Below are positions 4,663 through 57,867 of a stretch of DNA of 64,000 nt, one piece after another. The notes below the pieces were generated by a model that was not told the DNA's origin, made no database searches, and saw only the letters and a list, made by a program, of their open reading frames with translations. Location: assembly GCF_964204865.1 (NCBI RefSeq), contig NC_135262.1:8990001-9054000 (forward strand). Reading direction: 5' to 3'. Each line of letters begins with the position of its first letter. Positions within the stretch are counted from its first letter, which is position 1. The DNA is from Styela clava (lineage: Eukaryota). Made by a program: the position numbers and the translations under genes.

Positions 4663-6446
4663 ATGCAGAAGATGGAGTTCTACTACCATCCTTTTAGTTC
4701 ACCTTGCATGGGAGTCTGGTTCACTCTCAACCAATTGGGCGTAAACTTTGAACTTAAATTTGTCGACCTAATTACGGAAGTTGACCAGCGAAAGGAAGAA
4801 TTTTTGAAAATGAATCCACTTGGAAAAGTTCCTGTACTTAAAGATGGAGATTTTTGTTTGAACGAAAGGTGAAATATTTATTGCAGTGGAATATATTTAT
4901 CCTATGCTGAAGCACTTTAACGGCTAGGCCATTGCGACGGCGCCATGGTACAAATGGTATGAGTTATATCCAACGTTAATCTTAAACGAAACCGTAACAG
5001 CCTCATCAAAATCCAGCCCACCAACTCATATATAAATTTTCTTAGTATATCTATTTGAGCTTAGCTTTTTATATTCTGCAGTCACGCCATTGCTCAGTAT
5101 TTATGTCTAAAATATGAAGCGGATGATACAGCTCAAAAGTTATATCCGAAAGATTTGCAGAATCAAGCAAAAGTTAATTCGCTTATGTATCTCGAATCTG
5201 ATTGCCTTTCAAAAATCTACAATTACGTGGTAAGTTTTTGTAATTTCAACATGATAATATTATATTGATTGAAAAATAAATTTTAAACACGAATTTATGT
5301 TACATTTCTATCTACACTGATTGCATTTTTATTATGCATGCAACTATATGACTATGTAGACGATATGACTATTTACAGCATAACAAAAAGCTTCAAATTC
5401 AGGACACGGATAATTTTGATGTTTCAACTCATAGTATTACTGTGGAGAAATTTTTAAGTAAATCATGAAAAGTCAGTTCAACTTTAGATTAATTTAACGC
5501 CTTCTCCCTCAGCGATATCTTAAATGCTTGTAATATGGTGTGAAGTCTTCGCAAATTTTAGTATTAGCTAACTCCACTTTTTGTAGAACTTGACCCTCTG
5601 GGCGCGTGATCAACCACCAAGGAAAGACAGATTGAATGATGTTTATTCGAGTTTGAATAGTTTGGAAACAATACTTGAGCGAAGCAAATTTTTGGCCAAT
5701 GAACATCCCACATTGCCAGGTGAATAATCAGCAATATTGATTTATCCGTCCCATTTTACTTTATTTTACGTTATGTCTAGTATTAACTGATGCTCAAAAC
5801 TTATATTTTAATTTTTCCTGGAAAAGGTCGACTAATGAGAGTTTCGTGCATTTTGAATAAGTTGTTTTGAGAATAAACAGAATATAATATAAAATGTGTC
5901 AAATTATCTTCGCAATCAATAGTTAAGTATTCTGAAAGAATTCTCTGATAATATAATTTCGAGCTAAATAAAAATTTCCTTTTTTTTCCTCAATACGTGG
6001 CCAATATACCTAATCCATAAGCCAATATACCAAACAACGTTATACTAATTTCATCAAATCAATACGTCACATTAACAGAACCCATTAATCCATTAACAGA
6101 ACCCTACAGAACTTTTGATCTTCGTCTCTTGAAACTATTCAGTCCAGTCATAAGACATAATGGGGCAAAGTTCTGGTTCTTTTTATTTTTGTTATCATTG
6201 AATGTCACTTTATTTTTTTATGTGAAATTTCCAGATCTGTTTGCTATTGCAACAGTCAACTTGCTTGATGTGGCAAAATTCAATGACTATCAGAAATATC
6301 CCAATCTTGTGGCGTGGAAACAAAGAATGCAGCAACTTCCACATTATGAAGAGAGCGTTGGAAAGCACATTCTAGCCATAACTGATTTTTTCCAGTCAAA
6401 AGCCTATTTAAATTTGCCGAAAAATGACTACTGGGGCATAAAATAA
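4663..6446 (+). CDS. Glutathione S-transferase, theta/delta-like (GST-B); exons 4663-4868, 5082-5229, 5587-5719, 6235-6446
   Basis: MQKMEFYYHPFSSPC...NPLGKVPVLKDGDFCLNE/SHAI...; catalytic Ser motif present; same exon structure as the paralogues. Confidence 0.95.
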
Positions 6447-31733: not shown

Positions 31734-38088
<6,355 letters not shown>

Positions 38089-40482: not shown

Positions 40483-41400
40483 ATGATTTCATTTTTAGCA
40501 ATTGCAATTTTGAGTGTCAGCAGCTCATTGGCTACTGATGGTGAGTTACATTGTTCTACTTTGAATATTTAATTTAGTCGAAGAGTTAGGCTATATAAAA
40601 CAGTATGCTTTTTCTATCAAGCTGTTATTAAAATTCTATCTTTTTTTTCATTTGTTTTAGGACTGTCAGAAGTTTGTGAATTTGTATCCCCGACGAATCA
40701 AGAATTCTGCTACTGGACTGAAGTTCACCAAACTTGGGATACGACGTATGCCCTCGCCCAGGAAATCTGCGAATTGAAAGGATCCAGTCTGGCGGTAATA
40801 AGAGATGAAGCAACATATCAGGCAATCATGGAAAATTTGAGAGAGAAAATCCCCGATTATTGGAACACCTTGTACGCATGGATTGGTAATACGTTTAATC
40901 CGGAGGTAGGTATAGATTACTAAAACAATCATTAAAATTTTCTCAGTTTTTCTGTTTAAAACCGCAGCTATAAATAAAGTACCTATACGCAATAAAATAC
41001 GTTGGCTTGTTTTATTAGTGTTGATGTGACAGTTGTGTTGCTCTATTTTGCTTAATTATATTATAGTAGCCCATAACAAAAAATAAATGTAGACTATATG
41101 TATCAAAGTCCCTGATTGAATTTAATGATTTGATGGAGTTCCTTTAAGTTCCACGATATCGTGAATGGTATTTTTCTTAATATTTTTTTGATTTATTTGG
41201 TTTAGACAAGAACTGTACTTCCTTCTAATTCTTACATCAAATGGTATCCAATAAACGAGCCGAGAACAGAATCCGAATCTTACGACAATTTTTTCTTGCA
41301 CCTCTACGTACAGCGTGATCCTGAGAGTGAGTTGCAAGGGATGGGCAACGTCTATCCAGAGTTTCTGTGGCCAGCTGTAGTTTGCGAATATAAACTGTGA
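40483..41400 (+). CDS. Secreted single-domain C-type lectin-like protein (165 aa); exons 40483-40540, 40661-40905, 41206-41400
   Basis: Signal peptide MISFLAIAILSVSSSLA, then CYW...YALAQEICELKGSSLAVI...AWIG...WYPINEPR...VVCEY*. Not visible in the ORF track but in frame after splicing. Confidence 0.88.
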
Positions 41401-41950: not shown

Positions 41951-42084
41951 GAGTTTTTAATTTAGTTCAATCTGGTACGTGCTAGTAATTCCAATATCTT
42001 TGCGTTACAAAGAATATACCTGAGTCAAATTTAGTACTATGCCCATAACATTACAATAACCGACAACTAGGTTGTGCAAGTTAA

Positions 42085-43912
42085 TCACTCGAAGTCATAG
42101 TCAGAGCCATATCAATAAGTTGGCTCGAGTCACACCGAATCTTTGATAAATGATAATTCAAATCCAACTTGAGTGAAGACAATGAAAAACTTGGTCACCA
42201 CTGGAACAAAATGTTCGTTTTCCAAATATTGACTGGATTGGAAGCAAGCTCGACTTCATATTAATATAATCTTCTTCGATAGGAAAAATTCACTCCCCTC
42301 TGTCCGTCGGTTCTCTTTTAATTCAGCATCATGGCCATTAACAGTTTATAGAGAAATATAATCTATGTTTAATGTTACCATTGATGACCTAACAAGGTAC
42401 TTGTTAAGGTATCAATGATGCCACCATGGAACCGCCACACGGTGCGCAATTTTAATTTCGATTGTGTCATCACAAAAACCTAATAGGAAAAAATAATCTT
42501 CTGAAGCTCCTATGCAACCCACGCATTCTTATCTCTGGCCTAGACTACCCATACAAGACGGGAAATGCATGTATCCAACATGTATCTTATATCCCCAACA
42601 GGTCACTAGGTTGGTTTTAGTTTTCTGGTCAAAAATGACATTTGTAATTTTGTTTCTTGAAAATTATGGTGAAGAAGCTGGCTTTTTCAAAGTGGGCATT
42701 CAATTAGTGAACACATTAGCTTTGAGCAAAGCAACTTTGCTAAAACGCGTCATTTAAGTTCCATTTGCTTGTGCAATATCGCGATACTCTAGCCTCGAGT
42801 TGGCCAATCCATGAAGTGAAAATAACACGAACTGACCATTTCTTTGTTTTTGGCCTTGGTCCTGTACTGTAAAATGAAAACGTTTATTTTTTACATTCTC
42901 TTTATATTCACGTTTTACACCAGAACACACATTGGTATTTTACAAAGATGGTTCTTTCTACCATATTCCAGCTCGTACCCCATCAATAATAAACCTATTT
43001 TACTATATGGAACTCTGAAATTGATTTTTCATATTCTCTGCCTATAATAATATAAGTCAACAACATTTTGGTAGAGTAAGTCATGTCACTGATACAAAAT
43101 GTGTTCAGTGCGGTCGGCGAAGCAGTTGGAGAACTCAGTGGAAAGAATAGAAAGATAAGTGAATTGGAGACTGAAAATGATCGAAAGCAAAATGAGATAA
43201 ATAATTTGAAGAGAAATCTGGCACGAAAACAAAGTGAGATACAGAATTTGGAAATAAACTTGGGACAAAAACAAAGTGAGATTGGAAGTCTGCAAATTGC
43301 ATTGGATAATGCGATGGAGAAAAACAAACTACAGCAAAAAGGCTTGGAAAAAACCTATAAACCCAACGGCTTTGTCAAAGCATGTTGTTGTTGCTGCCTC
43401 AAAAAATCGAGGTTTGCTGTAGTTCCACGTTGATACTGAACTAAGTCAAGGGGTAATTTATCACTATACAGGCAATTTAATAAATAGAGTTTACCTTATT
43501 TTTATCCCAATATTGTATTAATTACTCAGATTTGTAATTAAAAACCGAATGTCTCGGTTTATATATTTGTTAATTATTTGCTTCGCAAACATGTTTCATT
43601 TTAATATCGTTACAATTGTCATCATACATTACATTTAATAAATTGAAAAACAATTTTGTTACGTTGACTGTATGCACTTATCACCTTTAATTCAATAAAT
43701 GTGATTTTACCATTTCATAATTATATATATACAGTTATATTTCTTGATTTTGTTAAATTACGAATAAATACTATGTTTGTAACACAATGTCTGAAATTCT
43801 GTCCTGAAGAAACAGTGCTGATGTCGTGTTTAATTGAGTTTTATGATGTTCACAAGAATTTAATTTTATTTTGATTCTTGAAAGTTTTCACGCTTTGAAA
43901 TGAAGTCTGACG
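42085..43912 (+). repeat. Arm of inverted segmental duplication (partner 55758-57867, -) carrying one cysteine-cluster gene
   Basis: Continuous reverse-complement similarity from TCACTCGAA.TCA.AGTCAGAGCCATA to TTTGAAATGAAGTCTGACG. Confidence 0.92.
43083..43433 (+). CDS. Small coiled-coil protein with Cys cluster (family member 1, 116 aa)
   Basis: Uninterrupted ATG ORF with 14-aa repeats (xxKQ[NS]EIxxL) and LEKTYKPNGFVKACCCCC; four paralogues nearby; downstream AATAAA. Confidence 0.85.
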   Translation: MSLIQNVFSAVGEAVGELSGKNRKISELETENDRKQNEINNLKRNLARKQSEIQNLEINLGQKQSEIGSLQIALDNAMEKNKLQQKGLEKTYKPNGFVKACCCCCLKKSRFAVVPR

Positions 43913-44473
43913 TCAATGCAAAGGTCACTTTATCAATATATCTAGGTAATTTGATAAAGCACCCTATTGTGCGACTTATCATCAATGGACTAGGAGAAGT
44001 TATGTCAGGATTGAATTGCTAAACACGTTTAAAGTTTCCAAATTTTTTTCATCAGTATTCGTATAGTACAAAATCCTTTAATCATATTCTATTTCATATA
44101 GGCGTAATACGAATATATTTATTATGAGCATTAACAAAAACAAATGAAGATAACGTACAATAGTCTTACACATTCTCATTAATTCGATAAAAAAATCTAT
44201 CTCAGATTGTAAATGGTCTTTTTCAAATTATTTACTACTAGTCTCTGTTTTATTAAGAGTTTGCTGCAATCAAACGAATATATTTTTGTCAAAAAACATA
44301 TGACTTGAAAACAAAATTATATAACACATCACGTTGAATTTTCTGATCATGGAACAAGTTTAAAATATTAAGGTTTTATAAACTCGATTTTGTAGTATTT
44401 GTATAAATATATAAAAACACATTATTATAGGTTTCTGCATTATTGTACACAAGACTAATGTAAGACACGCTAA

Positions 44474-44956
44474 TTATTCTTGGCTTGGAGAATCCGCGGC
44501 TCCGCAACATTTGCATGGACACATCTTACCAAAACATCCCATTTTACAATTGTTTGAAGGGCACTTACAACAGCCTGTGTTGCAACAGTTATCAGGCAGT
44601 TTACAACAACTGCAACAATCATTTTTGGGGCAAAATTCACAGCAACAACATTGTTTCCTATCAGTTTCTCCTGTTTCTTCATCATTCTCAGCATTGCCTT
44701 CTTCACCATTCTTTAAACTTTGCTTTTCATGGTCAATCTCGTCGATCTTAACTCTTTGTACAAAACAGCAGCAAGTTTTTTTTATGAATCCGCGGATTTT
44801 CATCGATTTTCGTAAAGTAGATTGCAGTTGTTCGATTTCTTCTATTTGTCTTTCATATTTTTCTTTCAAGTCACTTAGTTCTTTCGCTGCTCCCGACATT
44901 TGCTCCACCATGCCGGCAGCTAGAAATCCAGCTGCGTCAATAACCAAATCAGCCAT
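44474..44956 (-). CDS. Small coiled-coil Cys-cluster protein with acidic linker and 20-Cys tail (member 2, 160 aa)
   Basis: LRKSMKIRGFIKKTCCC family motif; tail CCCCEFCPKNDCCSCCKLPDNCCNTGCCKCPSNNCKMGCFGKMCPCKCC. Confidence 0.85.
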   Translation of the reverse strand: MADLVIDAAGFLAAGMVEQMSGAAKELSDLKEKYERQIEEIEQLQSTLRKSMKIRGFIKKTCCCFVQRVKIDEIDHEKQSLKNGEEGNAENDEETGETDRKQCCCCEFCPKNDCCSCCKLPDNCCNTGCCKCPSNNCKMGCFGKMCPCKCCGAADSPSQE

Positions 44957-46337
44957 TATTTAAATTATATTTAAACTAAAGTAATAAATTCTCTAATTCA
45001 CTAATGGAACAAATTGCAACTGATTTTTTGAATAACTAGAAGTCATTTTCAACTTTTTTTGTTTGTGTGTTCTATGGGATCAGAAACCCAAACGAACGCA
45101 TCAAATAAGATGCACACTAAAACGTCTTTGTTGTGATAAAAATATTTAGTCAAAAAGTACTCCATCAACAACAAACATATTTTCGAACAAAACACTGTTT
45201 TTCATTGTTGAAAGATATTTTATATTATCCTCACTTCCTTATCAATTGGTGAAGCTTATTTACCAATATCCTTCATTTCAAAAAATACTCGTCGTTGAGG
45301 CAATATATGGAAGACAAAGCGACAACAAAGCTAACTGATACATTCTAGTTTTTGCAGAAAACTGCTGCAATTATTTCGGAACATTCAGATGTACTAAACT
45401 GTTTCATATGTTTTTTCTTTTGATATTATCAGAATGATTAAGCAATAATTGTTGTGATTCACAAAGTATAATAAATATGTGAGGCGGAAATAAAGAACGC
45501 TGCGTAATAATATATACTTATACATATATATATACTTAAAATTAGTAATATTAATGATTTTGCATCTCCTGAACCAGATAGGTACTTGATGGACATAGTC
45601 CATTTGGTAAAAATTTGGACTATTTGAAAAAATAAAGTCTTGTCTTGTCGTCTCGATCAATGAATCTAATCGGTGTAAGAATATATTTCGAAACATACAG
45701 TTTTGCTTTTTGAGGATAAATACTGCCATGGTTTTAATTGAATGAAACACGAATTGTGTTATAATTAATTATCTATCCTACAACTGTAAGCTACATTATC
45801 TTTTAATGTATGAACAACAGTAACAAAGCGAATAAAATATGATTAGAATGACGTTATGTATTTACGTTTATACTCATGATGCATGTGAATATGATTATCG
45901 TAATGTTATCATCGCTAGATTGAATATTATTATATATGTGTAATAATTACTTGACAGTTGCAAATATGTTTTGCTGTTATATTCTATGAAGTGAGATCGA
46001 CGCATTTTAGTTTAACGCTGAAGTATGTGCAAATTATAGAATTTTTTTTCATAATCCGAATTAACTCAGATTGATTTAAAATTGAGTTGATAGATGAATT
46101 TACATAATTTAAGATTTGGAGAAATATGTTACACCCAGTTGATTCTAATTACTGCAAAAGATCTGAGTGTAAACGAATCAGCTCATATATTATGATTTGT
46201 TGATATTTTTCTGGCAGATATTATTTGAATTTGAGTTAGCTATTTGTTTGAAAACAATTTCATGAATTGTTTCATTTCAATTCATTTTTTTAAATAATGA
46301 TATTAGCGATAACAGGGTATTATAAATTTTAAACGAT

Positions 46338-46682
46338 ATGGCGGGAATGGTATTGGAAGTCGTTGGAGATGTGGCAGCTAGTGCGATGGAGCAATTCAAT
46401 GAAACAAAAATGGAAATTGAGGAATGGAAAAATAAGGCTGAAAAGAAACAAGAATATATTGACGAACTAAGAATGAGAGCGGAAAAATGTTACAATGTTA
46501 ACAAATTCGTTAAGCTATTCTGTTGTTGTTGTTTAAGTAAAGCTGTAATTCCTGAGCCAGAAGAAGAAGAGCAAGACGAGAGTGAAGAAGAAGAAGAAGA
46601 AAAAACTCCGCGAAGAAAATCAAAATCTAAAAGCAGAAAAAAGTCAGACGCTCAATTAAAAAATAAAAGGAAGTCCAAATAA
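46338..46682 (+). CDS. Small coiled-coil Cys-cluster protein with acidic then basic tail (member 3, 114 aa)
   Basis: AEKCYNVNKFVKLFCCCC family motif, poly-Glu tract and PRRKSKSKSRKK...KNKRKSK. Confidence 0.85.
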   Translation: MAGMVLEVVGDVAASAMEQFNETKMEIEEWKNKAEKKQEYIDELRMRAEKCYNVNKFVKLFCCCCLSKAVIPEPEEEEQDESEEEEEEKTPRRKSKSKSRKKSDAQLKNKRKSK

Positions 46683-47603: not shown

Positions 47604-47837
47604 TCAGATCCGCGCTTCATTGTAATGAACTTTGGATGTCTTCGGTTTAAATTTTGTTATGCAACAGCAGCAAAACACTTTTATAAAACTGTTGACTTTG
47701 TATGAGTTTTTTAGTGCTTCTTCCAATTCCACTATCCGGCGTTCTTTTTCTCGCAGTAATTCATTTGTTCCGGAGTATTCTTTATAACCAGCCACAGCGC
47801 CAGCTCCAAGCGCTGCTCCAAAGGATGCCGCCGCCAT
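47604..47837 (-). CDS. Minimal coiled-coil Cys-cluster protein (member 4, 77 aa; ATG at 47837)
   Basis: MAAASFGAALGAGAVAGYKEYSG...LREKERRIVELEEALKNSYKVNSFIKVFCCCC. Confidence 0.82.
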   Translation of the reverse strand: MAAASFGAALGAGAVAGYKEYSGTNELLREKERRIVELEEALKNSYKVNSFIKVFCCCCITKFKPKTSKVHYNEARI

Positions 47838-47902: not shown

Positions 47903-49825
47903 TTCAATTATCTAGGTAAATTTTATACCGTTACTAGACTATAAATTCGAGTGTTGCTAGTATGCAAAAGTTTATAATTATTATATACATTACGCGATAA
48001 CAAGCATGATAGATTGATCATTAAACTGTGATTTTGTGAGCGAATGCAAGAAGTTGAGTATTATTTTAAAAGGACGTTACCTGAGTAGAAATTATTTCAT
48101 AACACAGTAAATGTATTCTGATCCAGTTAACTAGATTAAAATTATATCAAGAATATAATACCTCATCAGAAATGTTATAGATTAATATTCTCATTCAACT
48201 CTACACAAAGTATCATGCCCTGTGGTCTGATTGCACATATGAGTTGATTGCTAAATTCTAATAAGAATTCACTAAAAATTAACCTTTCTGAAACCTTTCA
48301 TTAGTATACAAATATTCTCGATATTATTACAGCACTTTCACACAATAGCCTAAGTATAATTTTCAATTCTCTAACACGAGTCACAATTTATCCATAAGTA
48401 TGTGCATGAAGATTGCTGGCAGATCATTTCACGTATGAACAAGTAGTTTACGGATTCCTCCACTATTCACTTTGCTCTACAAACAATTAGTAATAATCAA
48501 CTGGTTAGCTATTCCCACTTCTACCTAAACCGGTAATTGGTAGAAAATCCGCATATGATTAAGCTGTCATAATTAAGTTCCTTTCTTTAGCAAAATGCGG
48601 GAATTTAATCCTAAGACTAGTATTTAAGTAGCGTAAAATACATATAAAGATTCCCGGAACAATGATTTTATATTAACTCAGAATTCATAATTTACATATA
48701 AGCTTAGACGACAACAACAGCTCCTTTGATTCAAGTGGTGTTTCATTGTCGTCAATTTGTATATTGTTTGAACAAGATCAAATTTGCCCTGACAAGCCCA
48801 ACCAACACTTTGACTTAGCCAATATTTGTTGAATGTTTGATTCAAAGTCAAAAGTTCATACAGATCTGAATACCGCTTATAGATGGAATTAGCGCATATA
48901 AAAATAAGGAAGAATGTATTTCTTATTTAAAGTGTTTTTACATACATTCACAAAACATGTTAAAAGGCAAATATCAATTTGATAAATAGAACTTAGATTT
49001 CTTGCCAAGTTTCAATTATCTAGGTAAATTTCATACCGTTAGCAGATCATTAATTCAAGTGTTGCTAGTATGCAAAAGTTTATAATTATTATATATATTA
49101 CGCGATAACAAGCATGATAGATTGAGCATTAAACTTTGATTTGGTGAGCGAATGACAAGCAGTTGAGTGTTATTTTAAAAGGACGTTTTCTGAGTAGAAA
49201 TTATTTCATAACACAGTAAATGTATTCTGATCCGGTTAACTAGATTAAAATTATATCAAGAATATAATAACTCATCAGAAATTTTATAGAATCTCTAATA
49301 AATATTCTCATTCAACTTTACACAAAGTATCATGCCCTGTGGTCTGATTGCACATATGAGTTGATTGCTAAATTCTAATAAGAATAAACTAAAAATTAAC
49401 CTTTCTGAAACCTTTCATTAGTATACAAATATTCTTGATATTATTACAGCACTTTCACACAATAGCCTAAGTATAATTTTCAATTCTCTAACACGAGTCA
49501 CAATTTATCCATAAGCACGTGCGTGAAGATTGCTGGCAGATCATTTCACGTATGAACAAGTAGTTTACGGATTCCTCCACTATTCACTTTGCTCTACAAA
49601 CAATTAGTAATGATCAACTGGTTAACTATTCCCACTTCTACCTAAACCGGTAATTGGTAGAAAATCCGCATATGATTAAGCTGTCATGATTAGGTTCCTT
49701 TCTTTAGCAAAATGCGGGAATTTTATCCTAAGACTAGTATGTAAGTAGCGTAAAATACATATGAAGATTCCCGGATCAATGATTACTTACCGATCTTAAG
49801 ATCGGTAAGTATGTTGATAGGTATT

Positions 49826-50406: not shown

Positions 50407-52317
50407 GTTTCGTACGTAGTCGTACGTAGCACTTCACCTAACATTTTAAGCTGTACAGATACATGAAGAGTGTACCTACTTTGAAACTTGGGCATGTTTG
50501 TCAAGACCAGAAGACTCGGAAATTAGACGAACGATTATAAAATACAAACACAAATCGAGGTATGGGCCACAAACGAAAGCTATATAAAGATGCTAGCAAC
50601 AATGAATTCATATTAAACTGAGTTTCTAATTTACATATAAGCGCATACGATCGTAAAATCCCCTCCCTACGTGCCGAGTGGTGGTTCAAGGTCGTCAGTT
50701 GTCTTTGTAATCATCCAATATTTGAAAATCAAATTTGCCCGTAAGACGAGCCTTCGACTTATCGACCTATTTTGTGTTACCTATACATCTCACCTGGAAT
50801 ATTAAGATGTCCAGATTTTTAAAAAAATGCAAAAGTTATAAATGTAGGCTTCTACGGTTTTGCTAAAAGCTTAGTCTGATCAAGAGGGATATTTGTCAAG
50901 AAACGATTATACACGAAAACTTCCTGGAAATGTTAAACATACGGTCGCACTGTATAAGTAGAATTCATTCTACACAAGGTAGCTGTACTTTAAGTTGCTC
51001 TTGTATTCGTTTAGTTGAATTACTCCAACAAAATGAAGATTTTTGTGTTTATACTTTGTTTCGTATTCCTGGATGGCATGAACATGAGAGTAACATCTCA
51101 TCGCACAGCAAAGAAATGTGTTTTACCAAAGTCTCAGAAGATTAACTGGAACAAGGTTTGTTTATTATTTTATGCTGCGCTCCCGTTTTAGAGTTTGTCA
51201 AGCCGTCCGTCCCGTCCAACCTCGAAAATAACTAGCTAACGATAAACTACAAATAACATAGTAAAGAGAAAGTATATTTGTTTTATTAATAAAAAAAAAC
51301 GTTGAAAACATGCGAATGGGAGGTAAATAATGAAATAAATGAAGGAAAGTTTCAAAAACAAGCCAATTTTGTCGCAACAGCTCTCCACAATCTCTAACCA
51401 ATAAAGAAATATAAATAACCAAATGACGGCGGGCCAGATAAAATCTAACAAATATATTTGTTTTAAAAAGTTGTCTGCGTCCCGTTGTGGGTCGCGACCC
51501 ACCATTTGTGATCCGCTGTATAGGTTTTCTAATCATATTTGTATAATAGAAAACGTTGGGAAGTCAGTTATAAATATATTGCTCACGGTATAAAGTCACA
51601 TCATACCAATCAATGCACAGGTGTCTATCTACACCAGTTGAACCAAACACAAACTTATTTTTACGTTCGTAGTACTTAGTGGGGATGGTAAACGAATTTT
51701 TGAGCAATTGAAGAATCATACCAATTATGAATGCCTATAAAACATGTAAAGCTAGAAAGATAATTTTAAATTTCCTTGACTAATTTGACATGAAAATAAA
51801 CTATGCTACTCATCAATGGCTCTGAGTTGCCGCTGTCTTGATACTACACGTAACTTTTTTGTATTATATATGAAATAATTGATGTTGAGTTTCACAGATT
51901 CGTGGAAATTGGTACGAAGCCTTAAACAGAAAAAGTCCGTTGGAAAAACTATTAAGCTGTGAAGCCTGGAGTCATGTGGTATCAATTAAGAATGGCATCA
52001 AGCTAAATCTCAGAAACGAAGATTGGTGAGTGATGATGTAGTTGAACGACTATTCTTCTGCCTGTCAAATAATATATATATATATATATATGCAAAGTTT
52101 ACTTCATTTTATACAGGAAAACTCACACATATAGCGTTCTTCCGATGTTCATTAGAATTACAAAATCAGGCACAGGAATTTGGAAACCGCCGACAGGTAA
52201 GTTCCCATATTTTTTGTGCTGTTGTATTGAATAACATACAATTTTTTCTTTTTCTTTTGTCAATCGTAGGTTGTGTAATCTCAAATGTAGAATATTTTCA
52301 ATTTCAAACAATTTGTA

Positions 52318-52622
52318 AACGAGATAGCGATCAGAGACCGCCGACTTATCGATCTAGCGGCGTGTATCCTTCGCTCTGACTCAATAGCGATACCGCGTGT
52401 CTTATCACTAATTATCTAATAACTCGCTAATTAAAGGGCATAATTTATCCAAAATCAATAGGTTCTGGTCCGAGATATGATGATTACACATGCACAAAAT
52501 TCGGAGCAGATTCAGTCGCGAATTCGTGAGGTATCGCGTAACATACGAAAGTGTCCAACAGACAGGCAGACAAACAAACAAATACCTATCAACATACTTA
52601 CCGATCAAGATCGATAAGTAAT
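52318..52622 (-). mobile_element. HINE-like family 1 copy in lipocalin-1 intron 3
   Basis: Same termini and core as 9961-10282; the corresponding copy in the duplicate is at 60433-61598. Confidence 0.75.
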
Positions 52623-52827
52623 AAAAGTTCAATGACACCATAACGAAAGTTAGCATGGGGATTGTCATTAGTGTCACAATATTACAACCATGACCGATGT
52701 GTAAGTACAGTTTAGTACTGAAATTATAGCATAGTTAGTAAGAATATTAAAATACCAAAATATTAGACATTAGAAAAATGAGTGATATAATCTTGCGTTC
52801 TCTCTGCAAAATAGTGTTGTTGTATTA

Positions 52828-53125
52828 TTACTTATCGATTTTATTCGGTAAGTATGTTGATAGGTATTTGTCTGTCTGTATGTCTGTTAGATGCACGCGA
52901 TATCTCACGAAAGCAAGATTGAATCTTTTCCAAATTTTGCATGTTCATTAATCTTATCTCGAACCAGAAGCCTATTGATTTTGGGCAAATTATGTCGTAT
53001 AATTAGCGAGTTATCAAATAATTAGTGATGGGACACAAGGTGTCACTATGGAGTTAGAGCGCTGTTTTGGGGGATCCCCTAACTTTCGATCGATAAGTCT
53101 TCGGTCTCTGACCGATATTCTCATT
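52828..53125 (+). mobile_element. HINE-like family 1 copy in lipocalin-1 intron 3
   Basis: Nearly full-length reverse complement of 9961-10282. Confidence 0.8.
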
Positions 53126-55757
53126 TATAGTATTGACATTGATTCAAATTTAAAATACCCAATTACTGAGATCAAATTACTTCTTTTTAGAATACTTTCA
53201 TGTGCCTTAATTAAAAGATGTCACAATATCCTATTATCCGCTGCAGCGTATCATGTCATATAATATGCTATACATTTTCTAAACTTGTCATTGTACTTGT
53301 TCAAAAGGGTTATATGTAGTCAATTCAACATGTATTTTGACGAAAAGCTTACATTTTTTATTGTTTTTATTTTATACGCAGTGAAAAAATGGTTTGCCTC
53401 TTTGAAACAGAGTTCCGCATCACAATATTGGAAAAAAGCTCATCATGGGTAAATGCAAAATACAATTTATATAAAACATAGTATTATATTTGTTAAAGCT
53501 TTAGTTTGGAATGACATTCTGTCTCATAGTTACTGAAGCTAACAGAATATTTAACAATGGAGGTAAAGCAAAATATCTTTGAATAAACTAAAGAAAAATT
53601 GTTTGCCCAAACTTTTAGATTGCAACCTCCAAATCTGCTGAGCTGTTTGAAATGAATAACCATTTCTGAATCTACGATATGCTTTTACAAGTTTGCTTCT
53701 GTATGTTGCTTTCAGCTATGATAAAATGCTTACTTAACCCATTTTCTTATATACTTTTGCAGAATTGAAATCGATGCAAAAAGCAGGATTCGCATTTTCT
53801 ACAGATTACAAAACCTACTTCATCGTCATGTCATGTGGACGGAACGGTAAACTACAAGTCATTATTATACAGTACATTTGATAGTGTTTTATTTTCTAAT
53901 CAGCTAAATTGTTCAAATGTAACTCGTCGACCATTCAAGAAAGTTAATCTTTCATCAACTATAACTTCTGACTGAAATATTATTTTATTTCTAAATCCGA
54001 TAATGGTATATTAAAGTAATGAAACTGTTATAAAATGCCAATACGTTTCACGCTAGATTGTCCCTTAGTTTTTCTACTCAGATCTTCGTTTACCACTTCC
54101 AGAAATATAGCAAGTTTGAAATATCAGGAATTAAGAGCAATGCCTACGTAAATCATTCATGTATCAAGTGCAATAAAATAGTATTTCAACTATTTTTAAC
54201 AGGCGAGAAATACGTATGGGCGCACACGCGACATCCCTATCCCACTGCTGAATCTTTGGTTGCTATCTTCAACAGTTTGGTGAAAATTGGACACGGATGG
54301 AATGACGAGCCATTGTACTTGTCACAATGCGTCAAGATTTCTAACACATAGCCCAACCTCAAATCATTTCTGTAGAAATGATAATAAACACATACATATT
54401 CAGAGAGAAATTTTATAAAGAGGAAAAGGGAACCGCGAATGATAAGAAAAATAGTAATGAAGCTGCCCTAATACAGTTAATGACACACTTGATAGATGTA
54501 AATGACATTGTAATGTAATCTGAAATTTATTATGAAATGTGATTGAAATAAATGATGTGAAGGGTTTTCACTCAGAACTATGTCATGTTCTTCAATAACA
54601 GTAACAAAGCCACAGCAAAAATTCAGCAAATCAACCCATATTTACACTTCTCATTCAATAAACCTGTAGGCTGTAAAGTCAATCATGAACTTTTAAACCA
54701 GCGTTTCCCAACCTTTTTCGATCGCGGACTATTTTCTCTCCGGCGAAAACCTTTGTGGACTCAATGTGCGTTTATTGCAACCGTACTCTGTGTAAAAAGC
54801 AATAAAACCAAACACAACAAAACTTTAACGAATTTCAAAATCGAAAATTCGCCGCAATTACGCGTTCGTTAAAAGAGTCGAATTTTCTTGAGTATAAAAT
54901 GGCCTTTTCTGTCGCATAATATTCAATCCAATGACGACGACGAAAATTTTAAATGTCCTTCTATAAAAATATTCTTATAATTCTGCACAGACATATTTCA
55001 GATAATTTATTCATATTTCATTGCAGTTCTTCGACTTTATCTTAAGAAAGTCAAAACATTCTGTCCGCGTCGTGTTGTAAATATTAAGTGTGTTCATGGT
55101 AACTCGCGGTTGCTTTGATTTACGACAAGATGAAAGCATTACTGCTTTAAAATGGCAAGGCAATCTGGAACTATGATGATGTGAGAATATATTGCCCGAT
55201 TATATTTAGTTTGGATAAATATTTTTTTGCGATCTTGCGAATTTGTTGTCGCCGTTAGAAAAATCCTACCATCTGCTATAAATTTCCAGAAAGTACAACT
55301 TGATTTAGCACTTAGTAAAAATATATTTGAAGTATATCAGTAAATTAAAAAAACATATTCATCGCCTTGCTTTATTATTAATTTAATTGTGATCAATATA
55401 ATCTGCGGGCGTGTTGACAAAATAAAAGCAATACTACTCAGGAAATATCATGACAATGCGTGGACACAAAAATGCGTGAAAGTGCCTGATTATATTTTGA
55501 TTCGTATTTTTGTGAATTTGACAAATCTGAGCTGTTCGTACCAATGTGGAGGCTAAAAAAGCGTTTTTAATCGCGGACCATCATAAAACAAAACTTGAGG
55601 TGTTCTCCGTTTTATTTTTAGTATTGCCGCTTTTCAATTTAAAAAATTTGGGTCGCCACCATTGACACTTAGCATCAGAAAAAAAATTATTCCTCGTTGT
55701 TCGAACTCGCGAAACACCATTTAGGTATATATCGAAGCGTGTGCAGGCTAGTGTTTT

Positions 55758-57867
55758 CGTCAGACTTCATTTCAAAGCGTGGAAACTTTCAAGAAATAAA
55801 ATGAAATTAAATTTTTGTGAACATCATAATAAACTCAATTAAACACGAAATCAGCACTGTTTCTTCAGGACAGAATTTCAGATATTGTGTTACAAACATA
55901 GTATTTATTCGTAATTTAACAAAATCAAGAAATATAACTGTATATATATAATTATGAAATGGTAAAATCACATTTAAAGAATTAAAGGTAATAAGTGCAT
56001 ACAGTCAACGTAACAAAAGTGTTTTTCAATTTATGAAATGTAATGTATGATGACAATTGTAACGATATTGGAATAAAACATGTTTGCCAAGCAAATAATT
56101 AACTGATATATAAACCGAGACATTCGGTTTTTAATTAATCTGAGTAATTAATACAATAATGGGATAAAAATACGATAAACTCTATTAATTAAATTGCCTG
56201 TATAGTGATAAATGACCTTTCGACTTAGTTCAGTATCAACGTGGAACTACAGCAGCGCTCGATTTTTTGAGACAGCAACAACAACATGCTTTGACAAAGC
56301 CGTTGGCTTTATAGGTTTTTTCCAAGCCCTTTTTCATTTTCTTGATTTCCTTTTGCTGTAGTTTGTTTTCAGCCATTGATTTATCCAATGCAATTTGCAA
56401 ATTCTCAATCTCACTTTGTTTTTGTTCCAAGTTTATTTCCAAATTATTAATCTCTTTTTGCTTTGTATCATTCTCGGTCTTCAATTCAATTATATTTCTG
56501 TTCTTTCCACTAAGTTCTCCAACTGCTTCGCCGACTGCACCGAACACAGATTGTGTCAGTGACATGATTTACTCAACCAAAATGTTGTTGACTTATATTA
56601 ATATAGGCAGAGAATATGAAAAATCAATTTCAGAGTTAGATATAGTAAAATAGGTTTATTATTACAATTTTTCTTGAAAACGCAATAGAGAGACAATAGT
56701 ATTCCAGTCGGAAATTGGATATATCTTCCCTTACACTTCTGAAGAGTGTCCAATAGGTTTCTACTGATCTAAAAGGATTCTTGTTTCTGTTCCATCTATA
56801 AAGAAGACCCAGCGATCTTCAGGAAAAACAAACGAGAAACAACACAAACGAGTAGCAACGGCATGCCTGTATCCTAGCAATATTGGTCTCAGAGAGAGAA
56901 GATTTGTAAAAGCCTTTTGTTAGGCAAATCATTTATTTGTTGAATAGATGGTAGGCCTACAGATGTAACGCCGCGACCGAAAGCTATTATTCAAGAAATA
57001 AATGACTTCTCTAACAAAAGGTTTTCTCAAATCTGAACCATCGTTGTAAAATATCAATGTGTGTTCTGTTGTAAAACGTGAATATAAAGAGAATATAAAA
57101 ATTGAACTTTTCCCTTTTGCAGTACAGGACCAAGGCAAAAAACAAAGAAATGGTCGGTTCGTGTGATTTTCCACTTCATGGATTGGCGAACTCGAGTCTA
57201 GAGTATTGCGATATTGCACAAGCAAATGGAACTCAAATGACGCGTTTTAGCGCAAGTTGCGCATGCTTTGCTCAAAGCTAATGTGTTCACTAATTGAATG
57301 TTCCACTTTGAAAAACCCAGCTTTAAATCTTCTTCCCCATAATTTTCAAAAAACAAAATTACAAATGTCATTTTGACCAAAAAACCAATACCAACCTAGT
57401 GACCTGTTGGGGATGTTGGATACATGCATTTCCCGTCTTGCATGAGTAGGTTAGGCCAGAGATAAGAATGCGAATAAGAATGCAAAGGAGCTTCAGAAGT
57501 TTATTTTCTCCTATTAGGTTTTTGTGATGACACAATCAAAATAAAAAATTGCGCACCGTGTGGCGGTTTCATAAAGGCATTAAACATTGATTACATTTCT
57601 CTCTAAACTGTTGATGGCCATGATGCTGAATTAAACGAGAACCGTTTGGCCAGAGGGGGAGAATTTTTTCGTATCGAGGAAATTATATTAATATGATGTC
57701 GAGCTTGCTTCCAATAAAGTCAATATTTAGAACAATTTGTTCCAGTGGTGATGAGACGCAAGTAATTCATTGACTTTACTCGAGTTGGATTTGAGTTATC
57801 ATTTATCAAAGACTCGGTGTGAATCGAGCAAACCTAATGATATGGCTCTGACTCTGATTTCGAGTGA
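55758..57867 (-). repeat. Arm of inverted segmental duplication (partner 42085-43912)
   Basis: See the partner arm; this arm has a ~370-bp unrelated segment at ~56665-57040. Confidence 0.92.
56236..56565 (-). CDS. Small coiled-coil Cys-cluster protein (member 5, 109 aa; recent paralogue of 43083-43433)
   Basis: MSLTQSVFGAVGEAVGELSG...LEKTYKANGFVKACCCCC; the indels relative to the paralogue keep the frame. Confidence 0.85.
   Translation of the reverse strand: MSLTQSVFGAVGEAVGELSGKNRNIIELKTENDTKQKEINNLEINLEQKQSEIENLQIALDKSMAENKLQQKEIKKMKKGLEKTYKANGFVKACCCCCLKKSSAAVVPR

What the first reader, a model, noticed from the sequence alone, without database searches (positions are those of the whole stretch)
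44474..44660. Metallothionein-like 20-Cys tail on one family member
Seen: after an acidic linker (GEEGNAENDEETGETD) the protein ends in 49 residues containing 20 Cys as CC, CxC and CCxCC units, with recurring PxN/PxD turns (CPKNDCC, LPDNCC, CPSNNC). Known: vertebrate metallothioneins also carry 20 Cys in CC/CxC motifs. Inference: this may be a membrane-tethered metal or redox buffer near a GST cluster. Alternatives are an extended palmitoylation string or a disulfide cross-linking tail; the two Phe residues are atypical of metallothioneins.
Basis: partly seen in the sequence, partly recalled or inferred. Interest (0 to 1): 0.7.

Follow-up and report, generated by a model that had tools for sequence, protein, structure and literature searches.

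The report
Orphan sea-squirt protein with 20-cysteine tail
An intronless gene, likely from a sea squirt and seen in RNA-type runs, encodes a small coiled-coil-like protein whose 20-cysteine tail is kept by selection; the tail matches no published metallothionein pattern tested, but would likely bind zinc or cadmium while the protein's core likely holds it at a membrane.

Summary
The tail is real: 20 Cys in 49 residues (44504-44650, minus strand), then 9 more residues, in an intronless 160-aa ORF (44474-44956). RNA-type contigs of 6 of 6 same-organism runs laid (3 studies) cover it, and two carry a published chordate spliced leader at AG acceptors, so the host is likely an ascidian. The gene is one of 7 intact members of a family found only in this genome (helix, then basic FxKxxCCC); only it has the tail. 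Against two decayed copies it lost 0 of 20 tail Cys (copies 9 of 37; p=0.02); dN/dS is about 0.14 in tail plus end, 0.9 in the acidic linker (few changes). It is not a metallothionein by descent on these tests: 8 published Cys-spacing motifs fit no better than shuffles, no Pfam hit, no MRE excess; the GST exons lie about 15 kb or more away. Best reading (0.45): an independently arisen metal-thiolate tail on a likely S-acylated anchor, working like rice DEP1's tail. Rivals: disulfide cross-linker (0.25), second lipid anchor (0.2). Metal binding and acylation are untested.

The parts
44474..44956 (-). Intronless ORF, 160 aa, the tail-bearing family member
   Evidence: covered by contigs of X1, X2, X3, X5, X6, X7 with no joint inside it
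44504..44650 (-). 20-Cys tail, residues 103-151 (20 C, 6 K, 5 N, 4 P, 3 G, 2 F, 2 D, 2 S, 2 M, E, L, T)
   Evidence: 0 of 20 Cys lost against two decayed copies; no Cys variant among 6 ORF variants
44474..44503 (-). Cys-free end, residues 152-160, and stop
44651..44758 (-). Acidic linker, residues 67-102; predicted disordered; looks unconstrained
   Evidence: pLDDT under 50; dN/dS 0.92 on 5 changes
44753..44806 (-). Family motif, basic-FxKxxCCC, residues 51-68; likely S-acylated membrane anchor (inferred)
   Evidence: F57, K59, C62, C63, C64 invariant in 7 of 7 members; net charge +3 to +7 around it
44807..44956 (-). N-terminal small-residue segment and charged coiled-coil-like helix, residues 1-50; no transmembrane-strength stretch
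   Evidence: one helix 6-68 predicted, pLDDT 76-90 over residues 21-50; best 19-residue hydropathy 1.15
45001..45002 (-). Trans-splice acceptor AG (leader joined in run X5)
   Evidence: table 7; context; leader equals 'Chordata 1' consensus
45020..45021 (-). Second trans-splice acceptor AG (leader joined in run X2)
   Evidence: table 5c; context
43641..44473 (-). Likely 3' UTR, about 0.8 kb, several AATAAA/ATTAAA
   Evidence: one X5 contig runs 43673-44875, an X2 piece reaches 43641; the true end is not shown by contigs
46338..46682 (+). Head-to-head paralogue, 114 aa: same core, acidic linker, then a Lys/Arg/Ser-rich tail instead of Cys
   Evidence: covered in the same 6 runs; 4 of 4 listed ORF variants silent
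43083..43433 (+). Paralogue, 116 aa, no tail
   Evidence: one low-depth X5 contig
47604..47837 (-). Paralogue, 77 aa, no tail
   Evidence: covered by X2, X5, X6 pieces
56236..56565 (-). Paralogue, 109 aa, no tail

Best explanation
This is an intronless, leader-spliced gene for a 160-residue protein whose 20-cysteine tail is kept by purifying selection and likely binds several Zn or Cd ions as thiolate clusters, while the family's basic FxKxxCCC motif is likely S-acylated and would tether it to a membrane's cytosolic face. Shown: ORF, family of 7, tail unique to this member, leader joined at two acceptors, selection on core and tail but not linker. Inferred: (1) cytosolic location, as there is no transmembrane-strength or classic signal stretch, so the thiols would be reduced; (2) acylation of C62-C64; (3) the acidic linker as a flexible spacer; (4) the tail folds round metal, 6-7 divalent ions if it follows the 9 Cys:3 and 11-12 Cys:4 ratios of metallothioneins (4 per 11-12 Cys from PMC8476144 Table 1; 3 per 9 recalled), as local buffer, redox-sensitive store or structural module; (5) it arose independently of metallothionein genes.
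For: Tail Cys lost: 0 of 20 on the gene's branch, 5 of 20 and 4 of 17 in the two decayed copies, Fisher p=0.02; 4-7.5 losses expected if neutral. Gene branch 10 silent/14 replacing changes over 79/350 sites, p=0.007; tail plus end 4/3, dN/dS 0.14, p=0.015; core 3/2; linker 1/4. 4 of 6 ORF variants in RNA-type contigs silent, 0 of 6 at Cys. Leader at two AG acceptors in two studies. Best 19-residue hydropathy 1.15, no CaaX end. Non-Cys residues are mostly K, N, P, G, D, S. Precedents read: MT-type peptides arise de novo and need mainly many Cys in a short chain (PMC8476144, passages); the Cys-rich tail of rice DEP1 alone confers Cd tolerance (PMC3808331, abstract); syntaxin 11 lacks a TM domain and is held on membranes by an S-acylated Cys cluster (PMC4049605, passages).
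Against: No measurement of metal, lipid or location. Cys spacing matches none of 8 published MT motifs beyond shuffles (p 0.20-0.99); 41% Cys is above the 15-30% usual for MTs and CCCC is not among the usual motifs (PMC8476144). No Pfam or solved-structure relative. One MRE core in the 1.37-kb upstream gap, about 0.6 expected. Keeping all Cys fits a disulfide lattice equally well. The head-to-head paralogue fills the same slot with a polybasic tail, which hints that the slot serves targeting or packing, not metal storage. Selection counts are small, rest on two copies, and the 'gene branch' includes the copies' shared stem. Two of the three tail-region variants in X3 change residues (K144E, M139I).
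Confidence: 0.45

Rival explanations
1. The tail is a disulfide cross-linker: the protein is a structural component (gamete, cortex or other hardening structure) whose CC pairs oxidise into a lattice, as recalled for keratin-associated proteins and sperm SMCP.
For: 41% Cys, 8 adjacent CC pairs, CCCC, three PxN turns; full Cys retention; small intronless clustered orphan genes; the head-to-head paralogue has a protamine-like Lys/Arg/Ser tail (likeness recalled).
Against: No tissue data; no significant repeat period; no signal stretch for an oxidising compartment; no sequence relative. One search listed SMCP papers but none was read.
Confidence: 0.25
2. The tail is a second, long S-acylation string: the protein is anchored at two points and bridges or bends membranes.
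For: The tail opens with basic residues and CCCC-x-F, echoing the family motif; net basic; paralogue 46338 has a polybasic tail in the same slot, another kind of membrane anchor.
Against: Few hydrophobic residues and four Pro between the Cys; retention of all 20 Cys is more than a redundant acylation string would be expected to need (inference); six paralogues do without it.
Confidence: 0.2
3. It is a captured or diverged ascidian metallothionein, or a vanabin-type domain, fused to the family core.
For: Ascidian-type host; Cys can be split post hoc into 11+9, and the last 9 have the grouping order of the amphioxus 9-Cys domain (5 of 8 gaps).
Against: That fit is not significant (p=0.20); ascidian motif 4 of 11 gaps against 4.2 in shuffles; protein and DNA searches of the genome with the tail return only the gene and its two decayed copies, no donor; no hit to vanabin or MT structures at E up to 10. 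The genome's own MT gene was not located, so no direct comparison was made.
Confidence: 0.06
4. The tail is functionless read-through or an artefact.
For: Orphan; both other copies decayed.
Against: Transcribed across ORF in 6 of 6 runs laid, same frame; selection on tail.
Confidence: 0.04

Closest known systems
Plant type C G-protein gamma subunits (rice DEP1, Arabidopsis AGG3)
   Same: One branch of a family of short helical proteins carries an extra Cys-rich C-terminal tail (19-38% Cys, no fixed motif; PMC3508898 passages); the DEP1 tail confers Cd tolerance (PMC3808331 abstract).
   Different: No G-gamma homology: no DPLL, no CaaX, no Pfam hit; tail 49 aa, separated by an acidic linker, same exon. 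Analogy only.
Chordate and other animal metallothioneins (ascidian 12-Cys, vertebrate 9+11, amphioxus, echinoderm, mollusc domains)
   Same: CC and CxC units, K/N/G/S/P-rich spacers, 20 Cys as in vertebrate 9+11 (PMC8476144, parts 1-2 of 8, section 11, passages).
   Different: Spacing fits none of 8 motifs; fused to a 100-residue core and linker; 41% Cys; CCCC run; two Phe.
S-acylated, TM-less membrane proteins (syntaxin 11 type)
   Same: Coiled-coil-like helix followed by basic residues and a Cys cluster, no TM domain (PMC4049605 passages).
   Different: No SNARE homology; acylation untested; this describes the family core, not the tail.
Ascidian vanabins
   Same: Ascidian Cys-rich metal proteins; some have an acidic segment (PMC9486056 passages).
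   Different: Vanabins have 18 Cys in nine disulfides on a helical core and bind V through Lys/Arg; no hit here; this tail is CC-rich and Pro-broken.

Membership tests
Metallothionein (general) | Cys-rich chain with CxC, CC, CCC motifs | tested here: met
   20 of 49 residues, 8 CC adjacencies, 4 CxC; above the usual 15-30%
Metallothionein (general) | Small free protein made only of Cys domains | tested here: not met
   160-aa fusion with helix core and linker
Metallothionein (general) | Forms metal-thiolate clusters | not testable with these tools
   needs ESI-MS/ICP/CD
Metallothionein (general) | Metal-inducible, MRE-rich promoter | tested here: inconclusive
   1 TGCRCNC core in 1.37 kb; window rate 0.44 per kb (core motif recalled); induction untested
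Ascidian 12-Cys metallothionein | [CxC]x5[CxC]x2Cx2Cx2[CxC]x4[CxC]x3-6CC | tested here: not met
   4 of 11 gaps, shuffle mean 4.2, p=0.81 (motif)
Vertebrate metallothionein | 9-Cys beta then 11-Cys alpha domain spacing; Pfam Metallothio | tested here: not met
   beta 2 of 8 (p=0.99), alpha 5 of 10 (p=0.64); no Pfam hit; PF00131 search of the genome did not return this place
Amphioxus / echinoderm / mollusc / appendicularian MT domains | Published Cys spacing of each domain | tested here: not met
   p 0.20-0.89 against 5000 shuffles
Plant type C G-gamma | G-gamma central domain with DPLL | tested here: not met
   absent from sequence; no Pfam hit
Vanabin | 18 conserved Cys in nine disulfides, homology to Vanabin2 | tested here: not met
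   no PDB sequence hit to it at E up to 10; no Pfam hit
S-acylated TM-less anchor (syntaxin 11-like, as analogy) | Basic Cys cluster after a helix, no TM | tested here: met
   7 of 7 members; best hydropathy 0.64-1.29
S-acylated TM-less anchor (syntaxin 11-like, as analogy) | Cys actually acylated and needed for membrane binding | not testable with these tools
   needs acyl exchange and localisation

The most novel reading that the evidence does not exclude
A metallothionein-like metal cluster born from scratch on the end of a lipid-anchored coiled-coil protein: a membrane-tethered Zn/Cd buffer in a chordate, with its own Cys pattern, in a family that swaps tails (poly-Cys, polybasic, none) behind one anchor.
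Probability: 0.25. Interest if true: 0.65.

Novelty: new variant of a known kind. Interest (0 to 1): 0.4.

Why it matters
Metallothionein specialists argue that such domains arise de novo repeatedly (PMC8476144); here is a candidate caught on one member of a local gene family, with two dated dead copies as built-in neutral controls and a 49-residue tail that is easy to express. If it binds metal it adds a new Cys architecture and a tethered form in a filter feeder that accumulates metals; if it cross-links, it marks an undescribed ascidian structural protein family. As it stands it is a lineage-restricted orphan with an untested function, so the interest is moderate.

Tried and rejected
Homologue searches outside the genome found nothing: full protein (0 of 17 candidates), 7-member alignment (0 of 4509 at E up to 10), a 'shorter' search that covered only 30-41 aa proteins and was uninformative, phmmer over 1.84 billion representatives, exact look-up of 9 sequences (0 of 9); longer or fused forms were not searched, and eukaryote coverage of these collections is unknown, so this is no proof of absence. 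Runs X13 and X14 of two other organisms: 0 contigs laid at 80%, no evidence either way. No listed holder is on record as RNA; 'RNA' is the tool's guess, backed here by the leader and empty flanks. The protein Atlas could not read the sequence. AlphaFold2 model: tail pLDDT under 50, expected as no other row covers it; Foldseek on PDB 0 matches; wider fold searches not run on a one-helix model. PDB sequence search: 2 chance hits at E 1.9. Homodimer fold of residues 4-70: no verdict, score 0.09, alignment not used. Family tree unresolved, no starred branch. Internal 12-residue repeat not significant. PF00131 did not find the genome's own MT. Earlier findings: none in 3 look-ups. Literature: searches listed no paper describing this family (listings only; subscription papers and the supplements of PMC8476144, which list ascidian MT sequences, were not seen).

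Full report
Observation. The finding lies at the 3' end of a minus-strand ORF, 44474-44956, 160 aa, read without intron. Residues 103-151 (44504-44650) hold 20 Cys in 49; nine Cys-free residues follow. It is the only such stretch in the window; 40,994 of 41,042 stop-free 49-codon windows in 284 kb hold 7 Cys or fewer. The three PxN turns are there but their period is not significant (p=0.40).

Family. Four more ORFs in the window (43083+, 46338+, 47837-, 56565-) and two beyond it (G000:C17 near 9,064.3 and 9,428.1 kb) share a charged helix ending in a basic FxKxxCCC motif; M1, F57, K59, C62-C64 are invariant in 7 of 7. All significant hits lie within 450 kb on C17; genome searches score only top candidates, so the count is a lower bound. 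Only this member has Cys after the motif; the head-to-head neighbour has an acidic linker and a polybasic tail; the rest stop 10-19 residues later. No relative was found outside the genome, within the limits given under Tried and rejected.

Expression and host. Contigs of 6 of 6 same-organism runs laid (X1, X2, X3, X5, X6, X7; three studies; 12 holders were listed) cover the ORF with no joint inside it, while 42000-42935 and 48084-48785 are empty in the four runs. Two contigs leave the genome at AG sites 44 and 63 bases before the ATG (45002-45001 in X5, 45021-45020 in X2) and continue with a leader that equals the 'Chordata 1' spliced-leader consensus in Table 1 of PMC3795323 (passage). It is not the 16-nt Ciona leader (PMC1636649, PMC3074122 passages); that this longer leader belongs to Halocynthia-type ascidians is recalled, not checked. 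Against a simple picture: one X7 contig runs past both acceptors to 45029 without leader, the X2 contig has further letters beyond the leader that map back to 44831, and one X3 contig leaves the ORF at 44911 with letters not found in the fetched loci. The runs are RNA only by the tool's guess, and contig depth was not used to rank genes.

Selection. Two decayed copies of the whole gene, tail included, lie at C17 9,426.7 kb (82% nt) and 9,475.4 kb (75% nt), with stops and frameshifts. In a three-way alignment, changes private to the gene are 10 silent and 14 replacing over 79 and 350 sites (dN/dS 0.32, p=0.007); the copies give 0.71 and 1.17; dropping shakily aligned codons 20-34 and 73-81 gives 0.26, 0.96, 0.82 (17 of 160 codons left out for gaps, 5 three-way differences unassigned). 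By part: tail plus end 4/3 (0.14, p=0.015), core 3/2 (0.18, p=0.066), linker 1/4 (0.92). No tail Cys was lost in the gene, against 5 of 20 and 4 of 17 in the copies (p=0.02; C117 differs in all three and is ambiguous). Of 6 ORF variants in the contigs, 4 are silent, 2 replace non-Cys tail residues (K144E, M139I), none touches a Cys (p=0.013); table 3 was cut by 75 rows, though the listed rows account for all differences in the ORF pieces shown, and the X3 second allele could be an unassembled paralogue. Counts are small, but the tail behaves as a working module and the linker as a spacer.

What the tail is not. Eight Cys-spacing motifs from PMC8476144 (Table 1 and section 11) fit no better than 5000 shuffles (p 0.20-0.99). 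Pfam gives nothing for the tail at E up to 10, PDB sequences two chance hits. Protein and DNA searches of the genome with the tail return only the gene and its copies, so no donor exon is visible. Five GST N-terminal exons lie between 4.7 and 29.7 kb of the window, none in the 22 other stretches fetched, and a C-type lectin exon sits between them and the family. One MRE core upstream is background.

How it most likely works. AlphaFold2 predicts one helix, residues 6-68, confident over 21-50, and nothing for the rest (uninformative for the tail). No member has a transmembrane-strength stretch or CaaX end, so a cytosolic protein is inferred. A basic Cys cluster closing a helix is how TM-less proteins such as syntaxin 11 attach by S-acylation (PMC4049605 passages); by analogy C62-C64 would anchor the family. 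In a reducing cytosol 20 thiols among K, N, P, G, D, S are most simply used to bind Zn or Cd; MT-type domains are argued to arise de novo (PMC8476144 passages), and the Cys tail that distinguishes plant type C G-gamma subunits confers Cd tolerance in rice DEP1 (PMC3508898 passages; PMC3808331 abstract). I put this at 0.45. A disulfide cross-linker (0.25) explains the selection equally and fits the very high Cys content and the protamine-like neighbour; a second acyl anchor (0.2) fits the swap of a polybasic for a poly-Cys tail; descent from an MT or vanabin (0.06; PMC9486056 passages) and non-function (0.04) are unlikely.

Verdict. Real, transcribed, selected, not a member of any metallothionein family tested; a new variant of a known kind (Cys-rich tail on a small helical protein) in an orphan family. 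No paper on this family appeared in the listings. Interest 0.4; 0.65 if a tethered, independently evolved metal cluster is shown.

Noticed in passing
G000:C1:13882500-13891500 (L050) and C1:14846500-14855500 (L051): The spliced-leader 23-mer occurs 352 times in the genome, often in same-strand pairs 5-7 kb apart. In 2 of 2 pairs examined it sits in both LTRs of an LTR retrotransposon with long gag/pol-sized ORFs (LTRs 754 bp 100% alike and 717 bp 99.2%; elements 94-98% alike). In L051 it is joined straight to the sequence that in L050 follows a pyrimidine-rich AG, as if the element's RNA was trans-spliced and the leader copied into the LTR. ORFs were not run against Pfam.
   Followed up: partly
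L052:7109 (G000:C1:7109): A leader copy followed by GT, outside an LTR pair in the 10 kb fetched: candidate SL RNA gene; not folded or checked for an Sm site.
   Followed up: partly
window 44957-46337: The tail gene and the polybasic-tail paralogue are head to head, 1381 bp apart, and both are covered in all 6 runs laid; possible shared promoter. The four genes at 43-48 kb alternate + - + -.
   Followed up: partly
window 4672-29905: Cluster of at least five GST genes (N-terminal exons at 4672, 13993, 17513, 25449, 29728).
   Followed up: partly
window 40573-40923: Exon with a C-type lectin match (E 0.001, under the cut-off).
   Followed up: no
window 50518-54668, 58614-64000 and L025:4273-8769: Three copies of a multi-kb block, 74-86% alike: local tandem duplication around the 56565 paralogue.
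   Followed up: no
L036:6580-8662 (G000:C17 9,426.6-9,428.7 kb): An inverted duplicate of the 43083/44956 gene pair 390 kb away: the tail gene decayed there, its partner stayed open.
   Followed up: yes
window 33597-35537: Open frames that look like exons of an unidentified gene; no Pfam hit.
   Followed up: no
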